Assembly (NCBI GenBank): GCA_030643245.1
Contig: DAOWME010000002.1
Span: forward strand, 1 to 41,390
Length of the DNA stretch: 41,390 nt
Reading direction: 5' to 3'
From: Deltaproteobacteria bacterium
Lineage (GTDB): Bacteria > Desulfobacterota > UBA8473
Below the pieces are notes generated by a model. It was not told the origin of the DNA. It did no database searches and saw nothing but the letters and a program-made list of their open reading frames with translations. This document shows, in pieces, positions 1 through 41,390 of this stretch (within the stretch, counting starts at the first letter, position 1; every line of letters starts with the position of its first letter). The position numbers and the translations under genes were made by a program.

Positions 1-169
1 GAAATAACTTCCCCATTTGTGCATCTCATCTTCAGGCCATCTTTGCCCGATCTTCAAACACAAAATCCTCAAAATAGTTCGACTATTCCTGCGGTTTTGC
101 GTTTTCGGATCGAACAAATCTAACCTAAATCTGAGCGCCAACTTGAGGAAGTTATTTCGTCCCCGTCCC
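1..169 (+). mobile_element. Family-1 ~180-bp palindromic MITE-like element, copy A (left end clipped by window start)
   Basis: Collinear with the full copies at 16084-16262 and 34866-35045 (reverse complement). Begins inside the terminal repeat (gaaataacttcc). Right end is ggaagttatttcgtccccgtccc, followed by TAA at 170-172. Confidence 0.9.
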
Positions 170-7981: not shown

Positions 7982-8081
7982 GGAACGGGGACGAAATAAC
8001 TTCCCCATTTGTACATCTCATCTTCAGGCCATCTTTGACCGATCTTCAAACACAAAATCCTCGAAATAGGTAAGACTATTC
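7982..8081 (+). mobile_element. Family-1 MITE-like element, copy B (left half only; truncated)
   Basis: ggaacggggacgaaataacttcc...taagactattc is collinear with copies C and F for 100 nt, and homology stops at 8081. Preceded by TAA (7979-7981). Followed by ggcatcctt, which resembles a Family-2 terminus. Confidence 0.85.
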
Positions 8082-12069: not shown

Positions 12070-12093
12070 GGGACGTTATTTCGGCCACGTCCC
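12070..12093 (+). mobile_element. Family-1 remnant (copy D): 6 nt of left end fused to 18 nt of right terminal repeat
   Basis: gggacg|ttatttcggccacgtccc is flanked by a direct TAA on both sides (12067-12069 and 12094-12096). The right-arm variant is the exact complement of the left arm of copy F. Confidence 0.7.
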
Positions 12094-16083: not shown

Positions 16084-16262
16084 GGGCGAGGCCGAAATAA
16101 CTTCCCCATTTGTACATCTCATCTTCAGGCCATCTTTGACCGATCTTCAAACACAAAATCCTCGAAATAAGTAAGACTATTCCTGTGGTTTTGTATTTTC
16201 AGATCGAACAAATCTGACCTAAATCTGAGCGCCAACTTGAGGAAGTTATTTCGGCCTCGCCC
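16084..16262 (+). mobile_element. Family-1 MITE-like element, copy C (complete, 179 bp)
   Basis: Perfect 22-bp terminal inverted repeat gggcgaggccgaaataacttcc / ggaagttatttcggcctcgccc. The interior pairs as an imperfect rod. Lies 23 nt upstream of the lon start codon, between divergent lon and relA. Confidence 0.92.
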
Positions 16263-16420
16263 CTAATACATGCAGAATGAATACATTATGACAAATTGTA
16301 GTTCATAAGAAGTATACGAATAGGCTCCCCCGACAAGGTCTTAAAGCCATAATTCAAATGAGTTTTAAAATTTCTGTGCAAGGGGGATGAGAATAACTGA
16401 GCACAAAAGATTACACTCCA

Positions 16421-30387: not shown

Positions 30388-30435
30388 ATAGCCCACATTC
30401 CCCACCCTATGAAACTAAGATCATGTATTTATTCA

Positions 30436-30743
30436 GGCATCCTTCATACATCGGTTTACACTTTTTAAATTATGGCTGCTTCAACGGTAGTTAAATTTTA
30501 ACCCGTGCAGAACTCGCATCTAAGTGAGCATAAAGAAAGAACAGTCTAAAGCTACTAAATTTAACCTATAGGTTTTGGAACTACAATCATTCAAAAAACA
30601 TGGCTTTCCCCCTGTTCTTTCTTAACGCTCACTAAAATGCTCAAACAGCTGCACGAATAAAATTTAACCACCGTTGAATCTGTGCCGAGACCGTTTTTTT
30701 ATTCGAAAGTGTAAACTACTTTATAGCTTTTATGAAGGATGAC
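30436..30743 (-). mobile_element. Family-2 MITE-like element (composite copy carrying a nested insertion)
   Basis: The ends ggcatccttcatacatcggtttacactttttaaattatggctgc ... ctgtgccgagaccgttttttta..aagtgtaaactactttatagcttttatgaaggatgac equal the 41107-41219 element in reverse orientation. The copy is interrupted at 30480-30678. Confidence 0.8.
30480..30678. mobile_element. Family-5 palindromic element nested inside the Family-2 copy
   Basis: Absent from the otherwise collinear 41107-41219 copy. Termini are ttcaacggtagttaaatttta / taaaatttaaccaccgttgaa. Arms of about 55 nt are imperfectly complementary (..gtgcag..taagtgagc..aagaaagaacag / ctgttctttctt..gctcacta..ctgcac..). Confidence 0.75.
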
Positions 30744-30834
30744 AAAAAAGGTTGCAAAAAAATATTTTTAATTATAATTTTATTTATTCGTTCCTCCCTC
30801 GCCGCAAACCATTCACTGGCATATTGGAAGGCCC

Positions 30835-33303
30835 ATGATGCACAGACCGTTAATTCCCCTGCTGATCTCTTACTTGACAGGGCTTCTGGTGGGTAATTAT
30901 TTTCATCTTCCCACAGGACCCACCCTGATAGTCACAGCAGCCCTTCTTTTCGTCCTGTTGTTTACAATCCTGTTGGAACGCAAACATGCAAGCGCTGTAT
31001 TCCTCCCTGCCATCTTCATCCTTATAGGGTGTCTCTTCATTAACCCGTATATCCATCCTCAGCTACCCAACAACCATGTGTCGAACTTTTTAAAAAATGA
31101 CTACCTGAACGTTCAAGGAACCCTGTACAACCCGCCAAAATTGCTGGAAGACAGGTCGAGGCTCTATGTAAAGGCCGAAAGGATTTACGTTAATGGCGGC
31201 TACACGGAAGTCACAGGAAGGATCTTGCTCACAATAGGAGAAACTGGAACACACCTGAAATACGGAGACAGGGTAAGGTTCATTTGCAGGTTGCGTCGTC
31301 CGAGGAACTTCCATAACCCGGGAAGTTTTGACTATTCAAGGTACCTGGCCCGTCAGGGGATACTCGTGACCGGTTATGTTAAGAGCAATAAGGATATCGC
31401 CAGAATGGGTGAGGGGTACGGCAACTCTTTTCGGAAGATAATAGAGGATTTGAGGGAAGAGATAAGGGCTTTTATTGATGGAAGGCCGGAACTGAGAAAC
31501 AGGCACCTCGTCAAGGCCCTTCTTCTGGGTGAAAAGGGAGAAGTTTCGCAGAGGACAAAGGAGAATTTCACTTCCGCCGGTGTAGCCCATATCCTTGCCA
31601 TATCAGGTCTCCATATCGGTTTTATTGCCCTAATCGCTTTCATTTGTGCCAGGGGGGCACTGAGGTTATCTCAAAGGTTGATGCTGGCGCTGGACATCAA
31701 TAAAGTCGCGGCTATCCTTACCATATGCCCTGTGCTCTTTTACGCATTCATAGCTGGTTTTGGAACTTCAACATTTCGAGCCACCATCATGATTATAACC
31801 TTTCTACTGGCTATCATAATTGATAGGCAGAGAGATTTGTACAACACCATGGCCCTGGCAGCCTTTATCATCACGCTAATTTCACCACCCTCTATCTTCC
31901 ATGTATCATTTCAATTGTCCTTTGTCTCAGTGCTGGCGATAGTCTATTTGGTCCCCAGGTTCGTGCATTATCTGTCATTGATCCCCGGCCTACCTGCTAA
32001 TCCCGTTCCTCCGGCGGCCAAGAATATCGGCAAATACATCGGCCTTCTAGCCCTCGTATCCATGGCTGCCACCCTGGGAACGGGTCCTATTGTTGCGTAT
32101 AATTTTAACAGGGTTGCCCTCCTCGGGTTCCTTTCAAATATAGTGATAGTCCCTGTAGTTGGTTTCATCGTCGTACCCCTGAGCCTGTTGGTTGGTCTGA
32201 CAATCTTTATTTCGCCTCCTCTGGCATCGTTACTCCTTGGCTTGGATTCCATCGTTATTGACTATGTCGTCTATGCAGTTGGGTCATTTTCGCGTCTTCC
32301 CGGTATCTCTTTTTGGATTACTACTCCCACAATACTGGAGATAATATTATTCTACATCTTTCTTATATTCCTCTTTAATATAGGGAAGCTAAAATGGACC
32401 GGATATGTTGCTGTAACTCTCCTGGCGCTGATCGCATCAGACTACTCCTATTGGTACTATGTCAAAAATTTAAACAAGACCCTTCGTGTGACATTTCTGG
32501 ACGTAGGCCAGGGAGACTCCGCCGTCATTGAATTCCCAAAGGGCAAGAGGATGGTTATAGATGGCGGGGGTTTTTACAACGACAGTTTTGATACAGGCAG
32601 GAATATTCTTGCGCCTTTCCTTTGGAAGGAGAAGATAAAAAGAGTTGATTACCTGGTTTTAAGCCACCCCCATCCCGATCATCTCAATGGACTTCGCTTT
32701 ATTGCCGGGAACTTCGGGGTAAAGGAAATTTGGACCAACGGGCAGGGTACAAACCAGAAACCCTATCATGAACTTATGGAGATAATAGAGCAAAAGGGAC
32801 TGAAAGAGACAGAAATGAACATCCTGACCCCACCCGGAAATATCAACGGGGTGAGGGTGGATGTCTTTAGCCCTCCGAACCAAATGTTAGGGCATCAGAA
32901 GATCGGTTTCCACTCATCCCTCAACAATAACTCACTTGTAGTGAAGTTAACGTTCAAGGAAGTGAGGTTTCTCTTCACAGGAGACATAGAAAAGGAGACA
33001 GAGACAAGGCTAATTGAACTGGGAGAACTGTTGGAGAGCACCGTTATAAAGGTCCCCCACCACGGAAGTCTCACATCCAGCACAAAGGGGTTCTTGAATT
33101 TGGTTCGCCCCTCTCATGCAGTCTTCAGCGCGGGTTACAAGAACAGGTTCAAACTTCCCAGAAAAAAGGTTATTGATAGATACAGGGATCTGGGCTGCGA
33201 AACATACCGAACCGATAGAGATGGGGCGGTTACCATGGTAACGGACGGGGAGTCATTCTCTGTCAAGAAGTTTCGGACCGGTCAGCTGGAAGAATTACAT
33301 TGA
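30835..33303 (+). CDS. comEC: DNA internalisation competence protein ComEC/Rec2
   Basis: N-terminal and central polytopic competence domain (AGVAHILAISGLHIG) and C-terminal metallo-beta-lactamase domain (VGQGDS..., LSHPHPDH, VPHHGS). Confidence 0.9.
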   Translation: MMHRPLIPLLISYLTGLLVGNYFHLPTGPTLIVTAALLFVLLFTILLERKHASAVFLPAIFILIGCLFINPYIHPQLPNNHVSNFLKNDYLNVQGTLYNPPKLLEDRSRLYVKAERIYVNGGYTEVTGRILLTIGETGTHLKYGDRVRFICRLRRPRNFHNPGSFDYSRYLARQGILVTGYVKSNKDIARMGEGYGNSFRKIIEDLREEIRAFIDGRPELRNRHLVKALLLGEKGEVSQRTKENFTSAGVAHILAISGLHIGFIALIAFICARGALRLSQRLMLALDINKVAAILTICPVLFYAFIAGFGTSTFRATIMIITFLLAIIIDRQRDLYNTMALAAFIITLISPPSIFHVSFQLSFVSVLAIVYLVPRFVHYLSLIPGLPANPVPPAAKNIGKYIGLLALVSMAATLGTGPIVAYNFNRVALLGFLSNIVIVPVVGFIVVPLSLLVGLTIFISPPLASLLLGLDSIVIDYVVYAVGSFSRLPGISFWITTPTILEIILFYIFLIFLFNIGKLKWTGYVAVTLLALIASDYSYWYYVKNLNKTLRVTFLDVGQGDSAVIEFPKGKRMVIDGGGFYNDSFDTGRNILAPFLWKEKIKRVDYLVLSHPHPDHLNGLRFIAGNFGVKEIWTNGQGTNQKPYHELMEIIEQKGLKETEMNILTPPGNINGVRVDVFSPPNQMLGHQKIGFHSSLNNNSLVVKLTFKEVRFLFTGDIEKETETRLIELGELLESTVIKVPHHGSLTSSTKGFLNLVRPSHAVFSAGYKNRFKLPRKKVIDRYRDLGCETYRTDRDGAVTMVTDGESFSVKKFRTGQLEELH

Positions 33304-33415
33304 TCTTGGCAGACTTTTCGGCTAGAATACTATGAAATATTAGATGCTAGGCCACCACGGACTAGGAGGCTGTCTTACGATGCAACGGATCTTGGCTTGA
33401 AAGGCATGGATAACA

Positions 33416-34615
33416 ATGAATATAACCGATGACCACATAACCACACCTGACAGTATGCTTCCCAAAAGTGTCCACCATCTTATGGTTGACGGGAAAGATA
33501 TCTACCTCGTCGGCACCGCCCATGTGTCAAAAAAAAGCGTTGAAGATGTGCGCGACACAATCAAGAAGGTGAAGCCGGACGTCGTATGCGTAGAGTTGTG
33601 CGCAGCGCGATACAAGGCTATTGTTGAACGGGATGTCTGGAAGCAGATGGATATCTTTAAGACAATCAGAGAAAAGAAAGCCCTTTTCCTCCTGGCACAG
33701 CTCATAATGACATCATTCTATAGGAAACTCGGGGACCAGCTTGGTGTCCAACCAGGCGCAGAAATGTTAGAAGGCATAAAGCAAGCTGAAAAAAACAAAT
33801 CTGAACTCGTTCTGGCGGACCGCGACATCGAAATCACGTTGAAACGTGTATGGGGATACCTCAACCTCTATAATAAACTGAAGATGATTGTACAACTCGT
33901 AGTTGCCGTCTTCAGTACGGAAAAAATAGATACCCCATTGATAGAGCAAATGAAAAATCACGATCAGCTTGAGACAATACTGGAGTCCTTCGCCAAATCG
34001 TTACCTGAAGTTAAGAAACGCCTCATCGATGAACGAGATATCTTTCTCGCCCGAAAAATCAGAAACGCCCCAGGGAAAAACATTGTAGCCGTTATCGGGG
34101 CTGGACACGTCCCCGGGATTCAAGATCATCTTCATGACAACGCGCCTATAGAACACCTGCTGGAGATTCCCCCAAAATCCATGGCACCATCCATTATTAA
34201 ATGGACAATACCAACATTGATTATTGCACTCCTCGTCCTCGGTTTTCTAAAGGGCGGCGTGGAGCATTCCGTACACTCTATCTACATATGGATACTGGTG
34301 AATGGTATCCTCTCCTCGGTTGGGGCATCGCTTGCCCTAGCCCATCCCCTCACCATAATAGCATCGTTCATAGCAGCGCCCATTACCAGTCTAAACCCCA
34401 TGATTGCCGCCGGCTTGATAGCCGGACTCGTTCAAGCAGGGGTGAAGAAGCCCACGGTTGCCGACCTTGAAGACCTTCCAAATGCCGTGTCCACAGTAAG
34501 GGGATTCTGGATGAACCCCATGAGCAGGATCCTGCTCGTAGTAGTCATGGTCAACCTGGGAAGTTCACTGGGCACATTTATTTCAGGAGGCTGGATCGCG
34601 GCTCGGGTGTTCTGA
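33416..34615 (+). CDS. TraB/PrgY/GumN-family protein with C-terminal membrane domain
   Basis: IYLVGTAHVSKKSVEDV...VCVELC and ERDIFLARKI...IGAGHVPGI motifs, followed by hydrophobic C-terminal helices. Confidence 0.8.
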   Translation: MNITDDHITTPDSMLPKSVHHLMVDGKDIYLVGTAHVSKKSVEDVRDTIKKVKPDVVCVELCAARYKAIVERDVWKQMDIFKTIREKKALFLLAQLIMTSFYRKLGDQLGVQPGAEMLEGIKQAEKNKSELVLADRDIEITLKRVWGYLNLYNKLKMIVQLVVAVFSTEKIDTPLIEQMKNHDQLETILESFAKSLPEVKKRLIDERDIFLARKIRNAPGKNIVAVIGAGHVPGIQDHLHDNAPIEHLLEIPPKSMAPSIIKWTIPTLIIALLVLGFLKGGVEHSVHSIYIWILVNGILSSVGASLALAHPLTIIASFIAAPITSLNPMIAAGLIAGLVQAGVKKPTVADLEDLPNAVSTVRGFWMNPMSRILLVVVMVNLGSSLGTFISGGWIAARVF

Positions 34616-34628
34616 GGAACGAAAATAT

Positions 34629-34817
34629 GGCATCCTCCATATATATAAAAAAGTAGTTTACACTTTACTTGTATCGCTCCAGGTTTCAGGCCTTGTATTT
34701 CTCTTTACTGACACCTGACACCGAAAAGCCATGTGAGGGGCAATTTTCATCAGCCCAGAACTTTGTCTATTGGCGCCCGCATCCCTGAAAAGTCTAAACC
34801 GATAAATGAAAGATGCC
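34629..34817 (+). mobile_element. Family-2 MITE-like element, variant copy (189 bp, divergent interior)
   Basis: The left end ggcatcctccatat..aaaaagtagtttacacttt and right end aaaagtctaaaccgataaatgaaagatgcc match both ends of 41107-41219. The interior is unrelated. Confidence 0.65.
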
Positions 34818-34865
34818 CTTTTTTTCTTTAATTGTCTCGATCATTTATGGTAAATTGTCAGATTA

Positions 34866-35045
34866 GGGACGGGGACGAAATAACTTCCTCAAGTTGGCGC
34901 TCAGATTTAGGTTAGATTTGTTCGATCTGAAAACGCAAAACCGGAGGAATAGTCGAACTATTTTGAGGATTTTGTGTTTGAAGATCGGGCAAAGATGGCC
35001 TGAAGATGAGATGCACAAATGGGGAAGTTATTTCGTCCCCGTCCC
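34866..35045 (-). mobile_element. Family-1 MITE-like element, copy E (complete, 180 bp, inverted orientation)
   Basis: Perfect 23-bp terminal inverted repeat gggacggggacgaaataacttcc / ggaagttatttcgtccccgtccc. Flanked by a direct TTA at 34863-34865 and 35046-35048. Differs from copy A by only a few substitutions (2 noted in the compared segment). Confidence 0.92.
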
Positions 35046-35171
35046 TTAATTGTTTTACCCTATAATACATCTTCACAATCTCCGAACAACGGAGCATCGC
35101 AAGCAATCACTCTTGTCATCTTTCTGCTTGCGGACTCATGGCGATCAGATGCAGCGCCTGGAGGAGACCGC

Positions 35172-36230
35172 TTGGCTGGGACATTGAAACAGCCGAAAAC
35201 AATCTTGGTTCGGTGCCCAAACTGGGTTGGCGATTTGGTTATGGCAACACCGGTTTTTGACTGTCTCAAGAAAAATTTTCCCGAGGCTCGACTCATCGGC
35301 CTAATGAGGAAACGTTTGAGTCAGGTTTTGAAAGATAGCCCATGGTTTGACCAAATCATCGAGGTCAATGACAAGACATCGAGAGGATTCATCCATACAA
35401 TACGGTTGATCCGTAGTTTCACTCCTGATATGGGAATTCTTCTGCCCAACTCCATCCGTTCGACTTTGGAAATGTGGCTCGGAGGAGCAAGAAACATATA
35501 CGGGTATCGAAGAGGGGGGAGAACACCCTTTTTGACCGGTGGTCCACGACCCATTCGCGAGGGATGGAAGATTATCCCCTCACCTATGGTAGCGTATTAC
35601 TCGAAAATTTGTCTTTCAATGGGGCTTGAACTTCCAGAAGAAATGAAGCCGCTGCTTTTCTTTTCAGAGTCGGTCCATAATAAATGTGACCGTTTGCTGA
35701 AAAAGTACGGGATCAACTCCGGCGACTTGGTTATTGGTTTAAACCCGGGAGCACGGTTCGGTTCTTCAAAGTGCTGGCCGCCAAGACATTTCGCCGCCCT
35801 TGCAGAACTCTTTGAAGAGACCTTCCATTGCAAGCTACTCTTACTTGTGGGACCCGGTGAAGACGCCTTGGCGGAGGCTATTGTGGAACAGACTCACGCA
35901 CATATTACAAATACGGCGCCTGATAAGGTCGATTTAGAGCTATTAAAACCCCTGGTTCAACGTTGTCAGCTTCTGGTAACGAACGACACGGGACCACGGC
36001 ATTATGCCGTGGCATTTGACGTCCCGGTCGTGGTGATCATGGGTCCCACAGATCCGCGCTACACAGCATCAAACCTCGAGAAGACCTCTGTGTTGCGTCA
36101 CGACCTGGATTGCTCACCATGTCACAAAAAAGTGTGCCCCCGTGACCATGTTTGCATGAGAGAGATAACACCGGCCATGGTTTTAGAGGCCGGGAAACGA
36201 TTAATGGTTGACAGGATAACCAGGGTATGA
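35172..36230 (+). CDS. Glycosyltransferase family 9 (ADP-heptose:LPS heptosyltransferase-like)
   Basis: KTILVRCPNWVGDLVMATPVF, NPGARFGSSKCWP and LLVTNDTGPRHYAVAF motifs. A TTG at 35172 with GGAGGA 6 nt upstream is the most plausible start. The ORF-track ATG at 35019 lies inside the repeat. Confidence 0.8.
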   Translation: MAGTLKQPKTILVRCPNWVGDLVMATPVFDCLKKNFPEARLIGLMRKRLSQVLKDSPWFDQIIEVNDKTSRGFIHTIRLIRSFTPDMGILLPNSIRSTLEMWLGGARNIYGYRRGGRTPFLTGGPRPIREGWKIIPSPMVAYYSKICLSMGLELPEEMKPLLFFSESVHNKCDRLLKKYGINSGDLVIGLNPGARFGSSKCWPPRHFAALAELFEETFHCKLLLLVGPGEDALAEAIVEQTHAHITNTAPDKVDLELLKPLVQRCQLLVTNDTGPRHYAVAFDVPVVVIMGPTDPRYTASNLEKTSVLRHDLDCSPCHKKVCPRDHVCMREITPAMVLEAGKRLMVDRITRV

Positions 36231-37720
36231 AGCCATCCCATTATCGAGAACAATGGACCACTTTGACCAAACAGGAACCAAACATTGAAAGTGTAAGTCA
36301 ACTGGCGCGGCAGGTGGCGTTTTCATTCATGGATCATCACTTTCATCGAGGCTGCTACGAGGAAGCGTATATCGATTTACTCTGTGAAATGGCAACATCC
36401 TCAGAGAGTCTCGAAGTAAACCGGTTTGTGGCAGCGGCCTTGTTCGGCATTATCGTGGAGGGGTTGTGTGATGATTTTGAGGAGATGCAAACACAGACTT
36501 ATAACCGGGTCATGAGTCAGGTGATTTCATTCTGTCGCAGCCTTCCTGCAGGCAAGGACCTCGATCACCGATTGGATGCTTTTGGAGTTCACTCTTCCGG
36601 AGAATTCCTGCAGCGTATAGACAGGATCAGAACGGACCACAAAGTTCTCCCGCTTCCTGAGCATATTTCCAAAATATTACTGCTCTCGAGGGTCACCATA
36701 GGCGCGGATGTGGCCATTACCAGTGTGGTTGTCCAGCGTTTAAGCAAGCGCTTCCCTGATGCAGAGATAGTGATCCTGGGCAGCAAGAAACTCGAAGAAA
36801 TCTATGGGGGCAATCCACGGATAAGGATCATGGAGGTATTGTACAACCGGCGTGGCGGTTTGATTGAGCGTCTGTCCAACTGGCATGATGTATTGGACAT
36901 TATTGACCGGGAAATCAACCACTCTTCACAGGAAAAGTTCATCCTTGTTGACCCTGACTCACGCCTTTCACAGCTCGGCACCCTCCCCCTTGTGCCATCC
37001 AGTCGTTACTTTTTTTTCGACAGCCGATCTGCGGAATCGTTTGATCATATGCTGTCTATTGCGGAGTTGACGAACCGGTGGCTGGATACTATCCTGGAAA
37101 CAACCGAGTTTTACTACCCTGCTTTGTGGGCCCCTCAGCATTACCTAGAAAAGGCAGCATCTTTTTGCAGGGAACTCCGAGAAGGGGGCTCCCGGAATGT
37201 CTTCATTGTAAACCTTGGTGTTGGTGGAAATTACCGTAAACGGGTGGAGGGAGATTTTGAGAAAGAATTGCTTCTATGCCTTCTCAAGGAACCCCGATCC
37301 ATGATCCTTCTGGACAGAGGGTTCGGCGAGGAAGAAATGGCACGGACAAAAGCACTGTTGGACTCTGTGTCAGACCATGGGTATCCGGTTGTCGATGCTT
37401 CTTTTGACGCTCTGAAAGTGTGGGATATCATAAGCGGTGTTGTTGGCATTCACTGTAGTATTGGGGAGATTGCCGCGTTGATTGCAAATGGTGATGAATT
37501 TATCGGGTATGACTCTGCCTGCCAGCATATAGCCGCTGCCCTTGGTGTGCCAACATTGACGGTTTTCGCAGGATCAAATAACATGCGGTTCGTCCGTCGC
37601 TGGAGCGCCTGCGGGAAGAACAAGCATACCATCGTTCACGTGGACACACTATCGACCCATGGTTATGTGAACAGCAATGATCTCGTGAAACGCGTTATGG
37701 ATGCGCGGATGAACAGTTAA
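36227..37720 (+). CDS. GT9-like glycosyltransferase with ~150-aa N-terminal extension of unknown function
   Basis: Central ILLLSRVTIGADVAITSVVVQRLSKRFPDAEIVILGS and C-terminal GYDSACQHIAAALGVPTLTVFAG resemble heptosyltransferase motifs. ATGA overlap with the upstream GT9 gene. Confidence 0.6.
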   Translation: MKPSHYREQWTTLTKQEPNIESVSQLARQVAFSFMDHHFHRGCYEEAYIDLLCEMATSSESLEVNRFVAAALFGIIVEGLCDDFEEMQTQTYNRVMSQVISFCRSLPAGKDLDHRLDAFGVHSSGEFLQRIDRIRTDHKVLPLPEHISKILLLSRVTIGADVAITSVVVQRLSKRFPDAEIVILGSKKLEEIYGGNPRIRIMEVLYNRRGGLIERLSNWHDVLDIIDREINHSSQEKFILVDPDSRLSQLGTLPLVPSSRYFFFDSRSAESFDHMLSIAELTNRWLDTILETTEFYYPALWAPQHYLEKAASFCRELREGGSRNVFIVNLGVGGNYRKRVEGDFEKELLLCLLKEPRSMILLDRGFGEEEMARTKALLDSVSDHGYPVVDASFDALKVWDIISGVVGIHCSIGEIAALIANGDEFIGYDSACQHIAAALGVPTLTVFAGSNNMRFVRRWSACGKNKHTIVHVDTLSTHGYVNSNDLVKRVMDARMNS

Positions 37721-37729
37721 GAGTTAAGA

Positions 37730-38098
37730 ATGAAGAATGATAAATCAATTATTGCCGAACGAAGTGTTGCGTATTCACTACGTATTATCAAGGTGTATCG
37801 TGAATTGGAAAAGGACGGTGTGGGCCAAATCCTGGGAAAACAACTCTTACGTTCGGGAACCTCTGTTGGAGCGAATATACATGAAGCACAAGGCGCCCAG
37901 AGCAAGGCCGATTTCATCTCAAAGATTTCCATCGCTTACAAAGAGGCGCGTGAATCTGCCTATTGGCTTCGTCTGCTCCAGGAAGCAGAACTGATCCCCC
38001 CTAGACGTTTAAGAGATCTATCTGACGAGACTGAACAACTGATCAAGATTCTATCTTCAATCATAGTGACATCAAAGAAAGGCAAGAGAAACTCATGA
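37730..38098 (+). CDS. Four-helix-bundle protein (TIGR02436; '23S rRNA intervening-sequence protein' / Avd-like family)
   Basis: 122 aa. LGKQLLRSGTSVGANIHEAQGAQSKADFISKISIAYKEARESAYWLRLL is the family signature. Confidence 0.88.
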   Translation: MKNDKSIIAERSVAYSLRIIKVYRELEKDGVGQILGKQLLRSGTSVGANIHEAQGAQSKADFISKISIAYKEARESAYWLRLLQEAELIPPRRLRDLSDETEQLIKILSSIIVTSKKGKRNS

Positions 38099-38136
38099 TT
38101 CTTAACTCTTCACTCTTAACTCTTCACTCTTAACTA
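38099..38136 (+). repeat. 14-bp tandem repeat (ctcttaactcttca x ~2.7) forming the right arm of the inverted repeat around the four-helix-bundle gene
   Basis: ttcttaactcttca|ctcttaactcttca|ctcttaacta. 38098-38110 is the perfect complement of 37719-37731. Confidence 0.85.
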
Positions 38137-41043: not shown

Positions 41044-41106
41044 TTTTCCAACCCATCCTGTTTGGTTGGAAATCTAGGAGGTATCGACAATATTACAAGA
41101 AATTTG

Positions 41107-41219
41107 GGCATCCTTCATAAAAGCTTCAAAGTAGTTTACACTTTCTAATAAAAAAACGGTCTCGGCACAGATTCAGCAGCCATAATTTAAAAAGTGTAAA
41201 CCAATGTATGAAGGATGCC
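41107..41219 (+). mobile_element. Family-2 MITE-like element, compact copy (113 bp) with 8-bp target-site duplication
   Basis: Termini ggcatccttcata...gtttacacttt / aaagtgtaaac...tatgaaggatgcc. A perfect direct repeat gaaatttg lies at 41099-41106 and 41220-41227. Confidence 0.85.
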
Positions 41220-41242
41220 GAAATTTGCTTAAAAAATACCAA

Positions 41243-41390
41243 GGGACGTGGCCGAAATAACTTCCCCATTTGTACATCTCATCTTCAGGCCATCTTTGAC
41301 CGATCTTCAAACACAAAATCCTCGAAATAGGTAAGACTATTCCTGTGGTTTTGTATTTTCAGATCGAACAAATCTAACCTAAATCTGAGC
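41243..41390 (+). mobile_element. Family-1 MITE-like element, copy F (right end clipped by window end)
   Basis: gggacgtggccgaaataacttcc..., collinear with copy C to the last base of the window. Confidence 0.9.

What the first reader, a model, noticed from the sequence alone, without database searches (positions are those of the whole stretch)
34866..35045. Compensatory co-variation of the Family-1 terminal stem between copies
The outer 11 nt of the terminal repeat vary at three positions between copies:
- gggAcgGggAc in copy E (and in the right arm of copy A)
- gggGcgAggCc in copy C
- gggAcgTggCc in the left arm of copy F

In both complete copies the opposite arm carries the exact complementary changes: gtccccgtccc in E and ggcctcgccc in C. 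All three differences between C and E are compensated, so each copy keeps a perfect 22-23-bp stem.

The right arm of remnant D (ggccacgtccc) is the exact complement of the left arm of F.

Independent drift of the two ends would not give this pattern. Two explanations fit:
- selection on a DNA or RNA hairpin;
- a mobilisation or repair mechanism that copies one end from the other, such as a snap-back or hairpin intermediate.
Basis: seen in the sequence. Interest (0 to 1): 0.65.

Follow-up and report, generated by a model that had tools for sequence, protein, structure and literature searches.

The report
Hairpin MITE with co-varying ends
The finding lies in one copy of a very abundant 180-base non-coding mobile element (a MITE) of a marine-seep sulfate-reducing bacterium; its two ends do change together over evolutionary time, as is known for such elements, but most copies elsewhere have mismatched ends, so the perfect stems in this window are the exception.

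Summary
Copy E (34866-35045) has a perfect 23-bp terminal inverted repeat. Copy C has a 22-bp one with three complementary differences. The arms of D and F match.

I collected 70 complete copies from public metagenomes and MAGs. All behave as a MITE with a 3-bp TTA/TAA target duplication, and an uninterrupted paralogous site shows the insertion. Perfect stems are rare: the outer 11 nt are fully complementary in 12 of 70 copies, and position 7 is a G·T wobble in about 40%.

The ends are still not drifting independently. Position 10 is concordant in 44 of 52 core copies. Across subfamilies, 12 of 23 terminal pairs and 14 interior pairs changed on both sides.

The whole element is an 85-bp hairpin whose non-Watson-Crick oppositions are all G·U or tandem G·A on one strand. 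Five of these G·U pairs persist down to 72% identity. That argues against copying one arm from the other, and for a constraint on a folded single strand in the lineages that keep transposing.

This is a new family of a known kind. Compensatory change in bacterial MITE hairpins has been reported before (bcr1).

The parts
34866..35045 (+). Copy E: complete 180-nt MITE, taken as the reference (+) orientation of the family
   Evidence: (I16). + strand RNA fold -110.4 kcal/mol, z -16.
34863..34865 (.). Left target-site duplication of E (TTA)
   Evidence: The same 3-mer follows the element.
35046..35048 (.). Right target-site duplication of E (TTA)
   Evidence: Identical flanking 3-mers in 55 of 70 complete copies (TTA 28, TAA 23).
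34866..34888 (+). E left terminal inverted repeat: variable outer 11 nt GGGACGGGGAC plus conserved inner 12 nt GAAATAACTTCC
   Evidence: Variability is 13.5% in the outer part and 2.1% in the inner part.
35023..35045 (+). E right terminal inverted repeat, exact complement of the left arm
1..169 (-). Copy A: 99% identical to E, opposite orientation, cut by the window start. E-type arm at 147-169, then TAA.
   Evidence: (I1).
7982..8080 (-). Copy B: half copy (right half of the element) with arm GGAACGGGGAC, preceded by TAA
   Evidence: (D2, D4).
12071..12093 (+). Remnant D: solo right arm GGACGTTATTTCGGCCACGTCCC followed by TAA
   Evidence: (D5, I23).
16084..16263 (-). Copy C: complete copy of the GGGGCGAGGCC arm type with a 22-bp perfect stem. 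One arm lacks a G and its flank is TCA instead of TAA.
   Evidence: (I20). + strand fold -101.9 against -71.8 for the - strand.
41243..41390 (-). Copy F: arm GGGACGTGGCC, cut by the window end
   Evidence: (D1, D4).

Best explanation
The element is a non-autonomous cut-and-paste transposon (a MITE). It is about 180 bp long with 23-bp terminal inverted repeats. It inserts at TTA/TAA and duplicates those 3 bp, which is the signature of IS5 / PIF-Harbinger-type DDE transposases. It has reached very high copy number in uncultured marine-seep sulfate reducers.

Its whole length is an imperfect palindrome. One strand (the + strand of copy E) folds into an 85-bp hairpin.

The complementary differences between copies arise because only lineages that keep transposing leave many descendants. 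Those lineages are constrained in two ways:
- both ends must stay matched for one transposase;
- the + strand hairpin, as RNA or as single-stranded DNA, must stay paired.

A change in one arm is therefore followed in successful lineages by the matching change in the other arm, often through a G·U/G·T intermediate. Once a copy is inserted it is no longer under this constraint and its arms decay or carry inherited wobbles. That is why most copies are imperfect.

Shown here: MITE anatomy, target duplication, insertion, covariation, strand asymmetry.

Inferred: the transposase family, that the constraint acts on proliferation, and whether the folded strand is RNA or DNA.
For: **MITE anatomy**
- Identical flanking 3-mers in 55 of 70 copies (TTA 28, TAA 23).
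- A copy in L037 interrupts another repeat whose intact paralogue, L009:611-765, has a single TAA at that point.
- Of the 86 copies examined, one lay inside a called ORF, and 32 at locus edges and 9 far from any called ORF could not be placed.
- No coding capacity, and no Rfam family.

**Hairpin**
- E + strand folds at -110.4 kcal/mol (z -16); the - strand at -77.9.
- The fold has 77 pairs, including 10 G·U. The symmetric internal loops are mainly G·A/A·G, three of them tandem, and there is no A·C opposition.
- Subfamilies down to 72% identity show the same fold. Seven of the eight representatives folded are 20-39 kcal/mol more stable on the + strand, and one decayed copy (L025) by about 10.

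**Covariation**
- RNAalifold finds 65 pairs, 26 with changes on both sides.
- 97.0% of cells are paired, against 92.9% in shuffles.
- No shuffle in 500 reached the observed value on any of the five measures. Slid controls gave 10-17 pairs.
- Double changes occur in the interior helices too (14 pairs), beyond what a transposase footprint on the termini would require.

**Old, strand-specific pairing**
- G·U at E pairs 34/147, 43/137, 47/133, 57/123 and 82/98 is kept in the majority of sequences of every subfamily.
- Rare one-sided transitions give G·U 58 times against A·C 23 times (p = 1e-4).
- Observed substitutions cost 9.3 kcal/mol, against 15.4 +/- 0.7 for the same substitutions placed at random.

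**Arm linkage**
- Left position 10 against right position 10 gives p = 7e-8, with no linkage to interior polymorphisms.

**Precedent**
- MITEs fold into long RNA stem-loops, and compensatory changes are reported for bcr1 (PMC3184786).
Against: - No autonomous partner or transposase was found in 569 kb of loci or in the window. The transposase family is inferred from the target duplication alone.
- The outer arms are the least well paired and most variable part of the element: 13.5% against 1.9% for the interior. Arm mismatch per pair is 0.14, against 0.05 expected from interior divergence, and there is no correlation with copy age. This is odd if pairing there were strongly selected.
- Within the core family, the terminal covariation is essentially one event between two haplotypes.
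- Counts of copies are not independent events. The parsimony count on a poorly resolved tree probably overstates recurrence.
- Copy orientation shows no bias relative to flanking genes (13 co, 22 anti). No stranded RNA data exist, so a role for RNA is unproven.
- The energy test is confounded, because substitutions are concentrated at the helix end where they cost little.
Confidence: 0.55

Rival explanations
1. Subfamily descent plus transposase recognition only. The ends co-vary because each subfamily's two ends must bind the same transposase variant, and copies inherit their master's ends. The full-length hairpin is a by-product of how the MITE arose and is not selected.
For: - Matched TIRs are a general property of TIR transposons (established knowledge).
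- In the core family two arm haplotypes explain most of the covariation. An unpaired combination, left position 10 with right position 7, is also linked (p = 2e-4).
- The first 23 bp are pure Watson-Crick in the consensus, while the interior has a G·U about every 8 bp. This is as expected if the termini are read as double-stranded DNA.
- Most inserted copies have mismatched arms.
Against: - 14 interior pairs, far from the termini, also changed on both sides.
- All mismatches are of the kind tolerated on one strand only: 10 G·U and 7 G·A, with no A·C. The asymmetry is present in all eight subfamily representatives folded, smallest in one decayed copy (L025).
- Rare variants favour G·U over A·C, 58 to 23.
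- A by-product palindrome should decay symmetrically on the two strands.
Confidence: 0.25
2. Arm-to-arm copying. One arm is re-synthesised from the other, by snap-back priming, by template switching in a quasi-palindrome during replication or repair, or by mismatch correction in a hairpin. A change in one arm is thereby transferred to the other.
For: - In two diverged subfamilies a run of adjacent pairs in the central stem changed together and became perfectly Watson-Crick, removing a tandem G·A. Examples: CUGAGUAUUCAAAAU/AUUUUGAAUACUCAG, and 24-27 contiguous pairs. This is what a template-switch event would give.
- Arms are linked to each other but not to the interior sites between them.
- Template-switch correction of quasi-palindromes is an established bacterial mutational mechanism (own knowledge).
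Against: - Copying would erase non-Watson-Crick oppositions, yet five G·U pairs and two tandem G·A sites are kept across subfamilies that differ at a quarter of their positions.
- Position 7 stays G opposite T in about 40% of copies.
- The outer arms are mismatched more often, not less, than the interior divergence predicts.
Confidence: 0.12
3. Host-level function of each copy. The hairpin acts in host transcripts, for example as a 3' stabiliser, terminator or RNase III site, and is kept by selection on the host.
For: - Copies are intergenic.
- Related copies appear in metatranscriptome contigs.
- Such roles are described for ERIC and Correia elements (own knowledge; review PMC3184786).
Against: - No co-orientation with flanking genes: 13 co against 22 anti in tandem gene contexts.
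- No terminator-like or promoter-like site in or beside E.
- Individual copies carry unrepaired arm mismatches.
- Copy number is far beyond any plausible regulatory need.
Confidence: 0.05

Closest known systems
bcr1 repeat of the Bacillus cereus group (MITE-like, about 155 bp)
   Same: A small, dispersed, non-autonomous element flanked by a short direct repeat. It folds into a long stem, and compensatory base changes that keep the RNA-level structure have been reported, with stability lost in many copies (review PMC3184786).
   Different: bcr1 has a 5-bp duplication, a different sequence and a Firmicute host. Here the duplication is 3-bp TTA/TAA, and the copy density is much higher (about one per 3-10 kb in the DNA sampled).
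Chunjie MITE of Geobacter uraniireducens Rf4
   Same: A deltaproteobacterial MITE of 178-235 bp with 21-bp TIRs. Its predicted RNA hairpins have about -98 to -130 kcal/mol (PMC3184786), the same size and stability class.
   Different: Chunjie has a 9-bp duplication and is A+T-rich. There is no sequence relation.
Tourist-type MITEs (e.g. mPing) and their PIF/Harbinger transposases; bacterial IS5 family
   Same: A 3-bp TTA/TAA target duplication (PIF/Harbinger: PMC2213677 abstract) and TIRs that start with GG. The IS5 relationship and the TIR starts are from my own knowledge.
   Different: Those MITEs are eukaryotic. No IS5-family partner was found here, so only the target-site signature links them.
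ERIC / Correia / Nezha bacterial MITEs
   Same: Intergenic, TIR-bounded, hairpin-forming, and amplified to many copies (PMC3184786).
   Different: Different duplications (TA for Correia, from my own knowledge), sequences and hosts.
REP / IS200-IS605-derived palindromic elements
   Same: Strand-specific hairpins with G·T pairs that act as single-stranded DNA.
   Different: Those elements have no target duplication and no long matched TIRs, and they insert next to a fixed tetranucleotide on one side only. This element has a matched TTA/TAA on both sides.

Membership tests
MITE (non-autonomous TIR transposon) | Short length and no transposase gene | tested here: met
   179-183 bp in most copies. 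Only short spurious ORFs. No Pfam transposase nearby.
MITE (non-autonomous TIR transposon) | Terminal inverted repeats | tested here: met
   23-bp TIR, perfect in E, with the conserved inner 12 nt GAAATAACTTCC on both ends of nearly all copies.
MITE (non-autonomous TIR transposon) | Target-site duplication flanking each copy | tested here: met
   Identical 3-mers on both sides in 55 of 70 copies (TTA 28, TAA 23).
MITE (non-autonomous TIR transposon) | Many dispersed copies, with filled and empty sites | tested here: met
   118 unique hits in 569 kb. 1,394 Logan contigs in one run. Paralogous empty site L009:611-765 with a single TAA against the filled L037:2386-2565. No orthologous empty site was available.
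MITE (non-autonomous TIR transposon) | An autonomous element with the same TIRs | tested here: inconclusive
   Arm scans of all loci found no long element with these ends. The 487-bp one in L002 is a nested insertion. Two scans of viral contigs were empty.
Mobilised by an IS5 / PIF-Harbinger-type DDE transposase | 3-bp TTA/TAA (TWA) target duplication | tested here: met
   The PIF/Harbinger 3-bp duplication is from PMC2213677.
Mobilised by an IS5 / PIF-Harbinger-type DDE transposase | A cognate DDE transposase whose element carries the same ends | tested here: inconclusive
IS630 / Tc1-mariner (Stowaway-type) MITE | 2-bp TA duplication | tested here: not met
   The flanks are TTA...TTA or TAA...TAA. 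A TA directly abutting both ends is not possible with these flanks.
IS200/IS605-derived palindromic elements / REP | No target duplication; insertion 3' of a fixed short target on one side; subterminal hairpins rather than long TIRs | tested here: not met
   Matched 3-bp duplication on both sides and 23-bp TIRs.
Any curated RNA family (Rfam 15) | Score at or above the family's gathering threshold | tested here: not met
   No hit at gathering thresholds in the window. The only E-value hit was a plant miRNA precursor model at 38 bits against a threshold of 211, a generic long-hairpin match.

The most novel reading that the evidence does not exclude
The family is more than a passive MITE: it may be a mobile gene for a strand-specific structured nucleic acid. 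The evidence is an 85-bp helix with conserved G·U pairs and tandem sheared G·A sites on one strand only, maintained across subfamilies. The folded form could be an RNA made from the + strand that the element needs to proliferate. Alternatively it could be a single-stranded DNA hairpin used as a transposition intermediate by an element that still makes a target duplication. The second option would be an unusual mix of the DDE and single-strand modes of transposition.
Probability: 0.2. Interest if true: 0.6.

Novelty: new member of a known kind. Interest (0 to 1): 0.35.

Why it matters
- **Assembly.** The element breaks assemblies. The window and three independent public contigs all end inside copies. 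It also sits in a contig binned into an archaeal MAG that carries Gram-negative bacterial genes.
- **Abundance.** It is common enough to matter for genome reconstruction of seep sulfate reducers and alkane degraders.
- **Evolution.** The family offers a large natural data set for asking how the two ends of a transposon evolve in concert: hundreds to thousands of copies, several arm haplotypes within one genome, and a strand-specific stem. The strand-specific G·U and G·A pattern makes the question 'is a single-stranded form involved?' directly testable.
- **The original claim.** Perfect, compensated stems in each copy do not generalise. The phenomenon that remains has precedent.

Tried and rejected
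- **Chance.** Rejected, given the repeat statistics and fold z-scores.
- **Known RNA family.** None found.
- **Chimeric assembly as the cause of mismatched arms.** Rejected as the main cause. Where both flanks are TTA or TAA they agree 51 times to 4, so at most about 15% of copies could be chimeric. The mismatches persist among the 51 copies with a matched duplication.
- **Post-insertion age as the cause of arm mismatches.** There is no correlation with interior divergence.
- **Search for the autonomous partner.**
  - Arm scans, multi-copy ORF clustering and Pfam found nothing. The multi-copy proteins are acyl-CoA dehydrogenases and methylmalonyl-CoA mutases.
  - The 487-bp element in L002 is a Family-1 copy with a second palindromic repeat nested inside it.
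  - Viral-contig scans were empty.
- **Orthologous empty sites.** The other assemblies of this locus end inside the element.
- **Arm-variant frequencies from Logan contigs.** The tool does not list variants close to contig ends, so nothing usable came back for the arms.
- **Stranded RNA evidence.** Only unstranded metatranscriptome contigs were available. They hold related copies at under 95% identity.
- **Counting independent compensatory events by parsimony.** The interior tree is too poorly resolved within the core family, so the count of 15 switches at position 10 should not be trusted.

Full report
**1. What is in the window**

The finding's coordinates hold one complete copy (E, 34866-35045) of a 180-nt repeat.
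- Its ends form a perfect 23-bp inverted repeat, GGGACGGGGACGAAATAACTTCC ... GGAAGTTATTTCGTCCCCGTCCC. The same TTA lies on each side.
- Five further copies or remnants are in the window:
  - A (1-169, cut by the window start);
  - B (7982 to about 8080, a half copy);
  - D (12071-12093, a solo arm);
  - C (16084-16263, complete);
  - F (41243-41390, cut by the window end).
E and C differ at arm positions 4, 7 and 10 on both sides in a complementary way, and D's arm is the complement of F's.
- Only E and C are complete, so the statement that each copy keeps a perfect stem rested on two cases.

The window is otherwise an ordinary chromosomal stretch of a Gram-negative sulfate reducer. It encodes an Hmc-like multihaem cytochrome complex, MutL, SurE, Lon, RelA/SpoT, RecG, Tex, RecQ, Mdh, ComEC and heptosyltransferases. 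There is no transposase.

**2. Collecting copies**

- An interior 22-mer found the element in a cold-seep 'Deltaproteobacteria' MAG. It also found it in a contig binned as the archaeon Ca. Methanolliviera. That contig encodes AmpG, HlyD and TolC homologues, so it is bacterial and probably mis-binned.
- A two-anchor interior pattern that leaves the arms free returned 62 metagenome loci.
- nhmmer over the window plus 66 loci (569 kb) gave 241 hits. These reduced to 118 unique copies, 70 of them complete with flanks.
- In public runs from marine sediments and cold seeps the element is extremely abundant. In run X1, 1,394 Logan contigs lay on it. Summed word depth reached about 5e5, against 29 in the unique flank.
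- The window and three independent public contigs of the same locus all end inside copies.

**3. It is a MITE with a TTA/TAA duplication**

- The 3-mers on the two sides are identical in 55 of 70 copies (TTA 28, TAA 23).
- One copy (L037:2386-2565) interrupts another repeat. The intact paralogue of that repeat (L009:611-765, 93.5% identical over 155 nt) has a single TAA at the junction, which shows insertion with duplication.
- Of the 86 copies examined, one lay inside a called ORF. Another 32 at locus edges and 9 far from any called ORF could not be placed.
- A 3-bp TTA/TAA duplication is the mark of PIF/Harbinger elements (PMC2213677) and, from my own knowledge, of parts of the bacterial IS5 family.
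- No autonomous partner was found, so this assignment is inferred.

**4. Testing the claim on 70 copies**

- The outer 11 nt of the two arms are fully complementary in 12 of 70 copies.
- Among the 51 copies with a matched TTA/TAA duplication, 11 are perfect over the outer 11 nt and 4 over the full 23 bp. If G·T is allowed on the + strand, 31 of 51 are fully paired over the outer 11 nt.
- Assembly chimeras cannot explain this. Where both flanks are TTA or TAA they agree 51 times to 4.
- In the core family of 52 copies:
  - position 10 is concordant in 44 (AA 23, CC 21; Fisher p = 7e-8);
  - position 4 is concordant in 48 (AA 44, GG 4);
  - position 7 is G on the left and A-equivalent on the right in 21 copies, a G·T (G·U) wobble, with GG 25, AA 4 and TT 1.
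- The core family therefore has mainly two arm haplotypes, G7 A10 / G7 A10 and G7 C10 / A7 C10. They differ by one compensated pair and one uncompensated wobble.
- Hybrids of the two haplotypes exist (L061, L053, L050, L011, L036).

**5. The ends nevertheless evolve in concert, and so does the rest of the stem**

- More distant subfamilies carry the same differences on both arms: GGAACGTGGAC, GGAACGAGGTTT, GGGACTGGAAAT, GGGATGAGGCC and GGGGCGAGGCC.
- On an alignment of 68 copies, RNAalifold predicts 65 pairs. Of these, 26 have changes on both sides: 12 of 23 in the terminal helix and 14 in the interior helices.
- The pair-count tool gives 97.0% of cells paired, against 92.9 +/- 0.2 in shuffles.
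- It gives 26 pairs with double changes, against 13.1 +/- 2.1 in shuffles (0 of 500 reach it). Controls with slid partners give 10-17.
- The pair-count measure is the one the tool reports as robust to relatedness.
- The arms are linked to each other but to none of the interior polymorphisms.

**6. The whole element is a one-strand hairpin**

- E's + strand folds as RNA at -110.4 kcal/mol (z -16). The - strand gives -77.9, and DNA parameters give -52.9.
- The + fold has 77 pairs, including 10 G·U.
- Its symmetric internal loops are mainly G·A/A·G, three of them tandem, and there is no A·C opposition. On the other strand these become A·C and pyrimidine-pyrimidine mismatches.
- Subfamilies down to 72% identity show the same architecture. 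Seven of the eight representatives folded are 20-39 kcal/mol more stable on the + strand, and one decayed copy (L025) by about 10.
- G·U at five places is kept in the majority of sequences of every subfamily, while many Watson-Crick pairs swapped.
- Rare one-sided transitions give G·U 58 times and A·C 23 times (p = 1e-4; copies are not independent).
- Observed substitutions destabilise the + fold less than the same substitutions placed at random: 9.3 against 15.4 +/- 0.7 kcal/mol. This test is confounded because substitutions cluster at the helix end.

**7. What this says about mechanism**

- Independent rebirth of each subfamily as a perfect fold-back, or frequent arm-to-arm copying, would erase or randomise the non-Watson-Crick sites. 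Their conservation argues for descent from an already imperfect hairpin, with pairing kept on one strand.
- The interior double changes go beyond a transposase footprint on the termini.
- Inserted copies show no sign of being maintained:
  - the arms are mismatched more than interior divergence predicts (0.14 per pair against 0.05);
  - arm mismatch has no relation to copy age;
  - orientation relative to neighbouring genes is unbiased (13 co, 22 anti).
- The constraint therefore most likely acts on the ability to keep transposing.
- Template switching may contribute locally. In two subfamilies a run of central pairs changed together into perfect Watson-Crick pairing.
- RNA against single-stranded DNA cannot be decided here. 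Only unstranded metatranscriptome contigs with related copies were available.

**8. Unexplained**

- Arm positions 4-12 are about seven times more variable than the inner arm or the interior: 13.5% against 2.1% and 1.9%.
- The outer 12 nt are a tandem GGGACG GGGACG. Variable positions 4 and 10 are the same place in the two units.

**9. Comparison and verdict**

- A review of bacterial repeats states that MITEs typically fold into long RNA stem-loops. It also reports that compensatory changes maintain the structure of bcr1, and that Chunjie in Geobacter has the same size and stability class (PMC3184786).
- I found no description of this family in Rfam or in the four full-text paper searches.
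- It is a new member of a known kind.
Concerted change of the ends is real at the family level. Perfect compensated stems are not the rule.

Noticed in passing
window 30431-30747, 34621-34666, 41099-41236; L002:1388-1874: A second palindromic repeat family (GGCATCCTTCATA ... AAAGTAGTTTACACTTT) lies next to Family-1 copies E and F. In L002 it is nested inside a Family-1 copy, giving a 487-bp composite flanked by TTA.
   Followed up: partly
window 30436 (L067:1189): ENA scaffold L067 is 99.9% identical to window 30436-34913 but has a different left neighbour (NadA instead of the GidA-family gene). The break lies at the edge of the second repeat family. This is either a strain rearrangement or a chimeric assembly at a repeat.
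   Followed up: partly
window 1 and 41390; L067-L069 ends (window 34677-34916): The window starts and ends inside Family-1 copies. Of three independent public contigs of the same locus, two end about 50 nt into copy E and one about 190 nt upstream of it, beside the Family-2 fragment at 34621-34666. The repeats limit assembly in this lineage.
   Followed up: yes
window 35019-36230: An ATG inside E's right arm opens a frame that runs uninterrupted into the downstream GT9 heptosyltransferase gene. The insertion could add an N-terminal extension or mislead gene callers.
   Followed up: no
window 37712-37747 and 38096-38131: 36-nt inverted repeats (81% complementary) bracket a small ORF (37730-38098) of the 23S rRNA-intervening-sequence protein family, between two glycosyltransferase/radical-SAM genes.
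   Followed up: no
window 7982 and 12093: The arms of half-copy B and remnant D face each other across 4,112 bp that include mutL, and both have a TAA flank. A flank match by chance has about 50% probability, and both arms are of the right-arm type, so this is probably coincidence.
   Followed up: partly
L001/L002 (CABGHG010000014.1): A contig binned into the archaeal MAG 'Ca. Methanolliviera sp. GoM_oil' carries three copies of the element. It also carries AmpG-, HlyD- and TolC-family genes, which are typical of Gram-negative bacteria. It is likely mis-binned.
   Followed up: partly
loci L005-L066 (e.g. L061:3227-3229, L034:3814-3816): In 6 of 70 copies the duplicated TAA is the stop codon of an ORF of at least 100 codons, so the insertion keeps the gene's stop intact.
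   Followed up: partly
L042:3919-11147 and other loci: The loci carrying the element are rich in paralogous acyl-CoA dehydrogenases (five in tandem in L042) and methylmalonyl-CoA mutases. This suggests an alkane- or fatty-acid-degrading host.
   Followed up: no
runs X1, X2 on window 34856-35055: Some Logan contigs join the end of one copy to the start of another ('goes back 183-190'), so head-to-tail adjacent copies exist. Others skip 54-136 nt of the interior, which indicates internally deleted variants.
   Followed up: no
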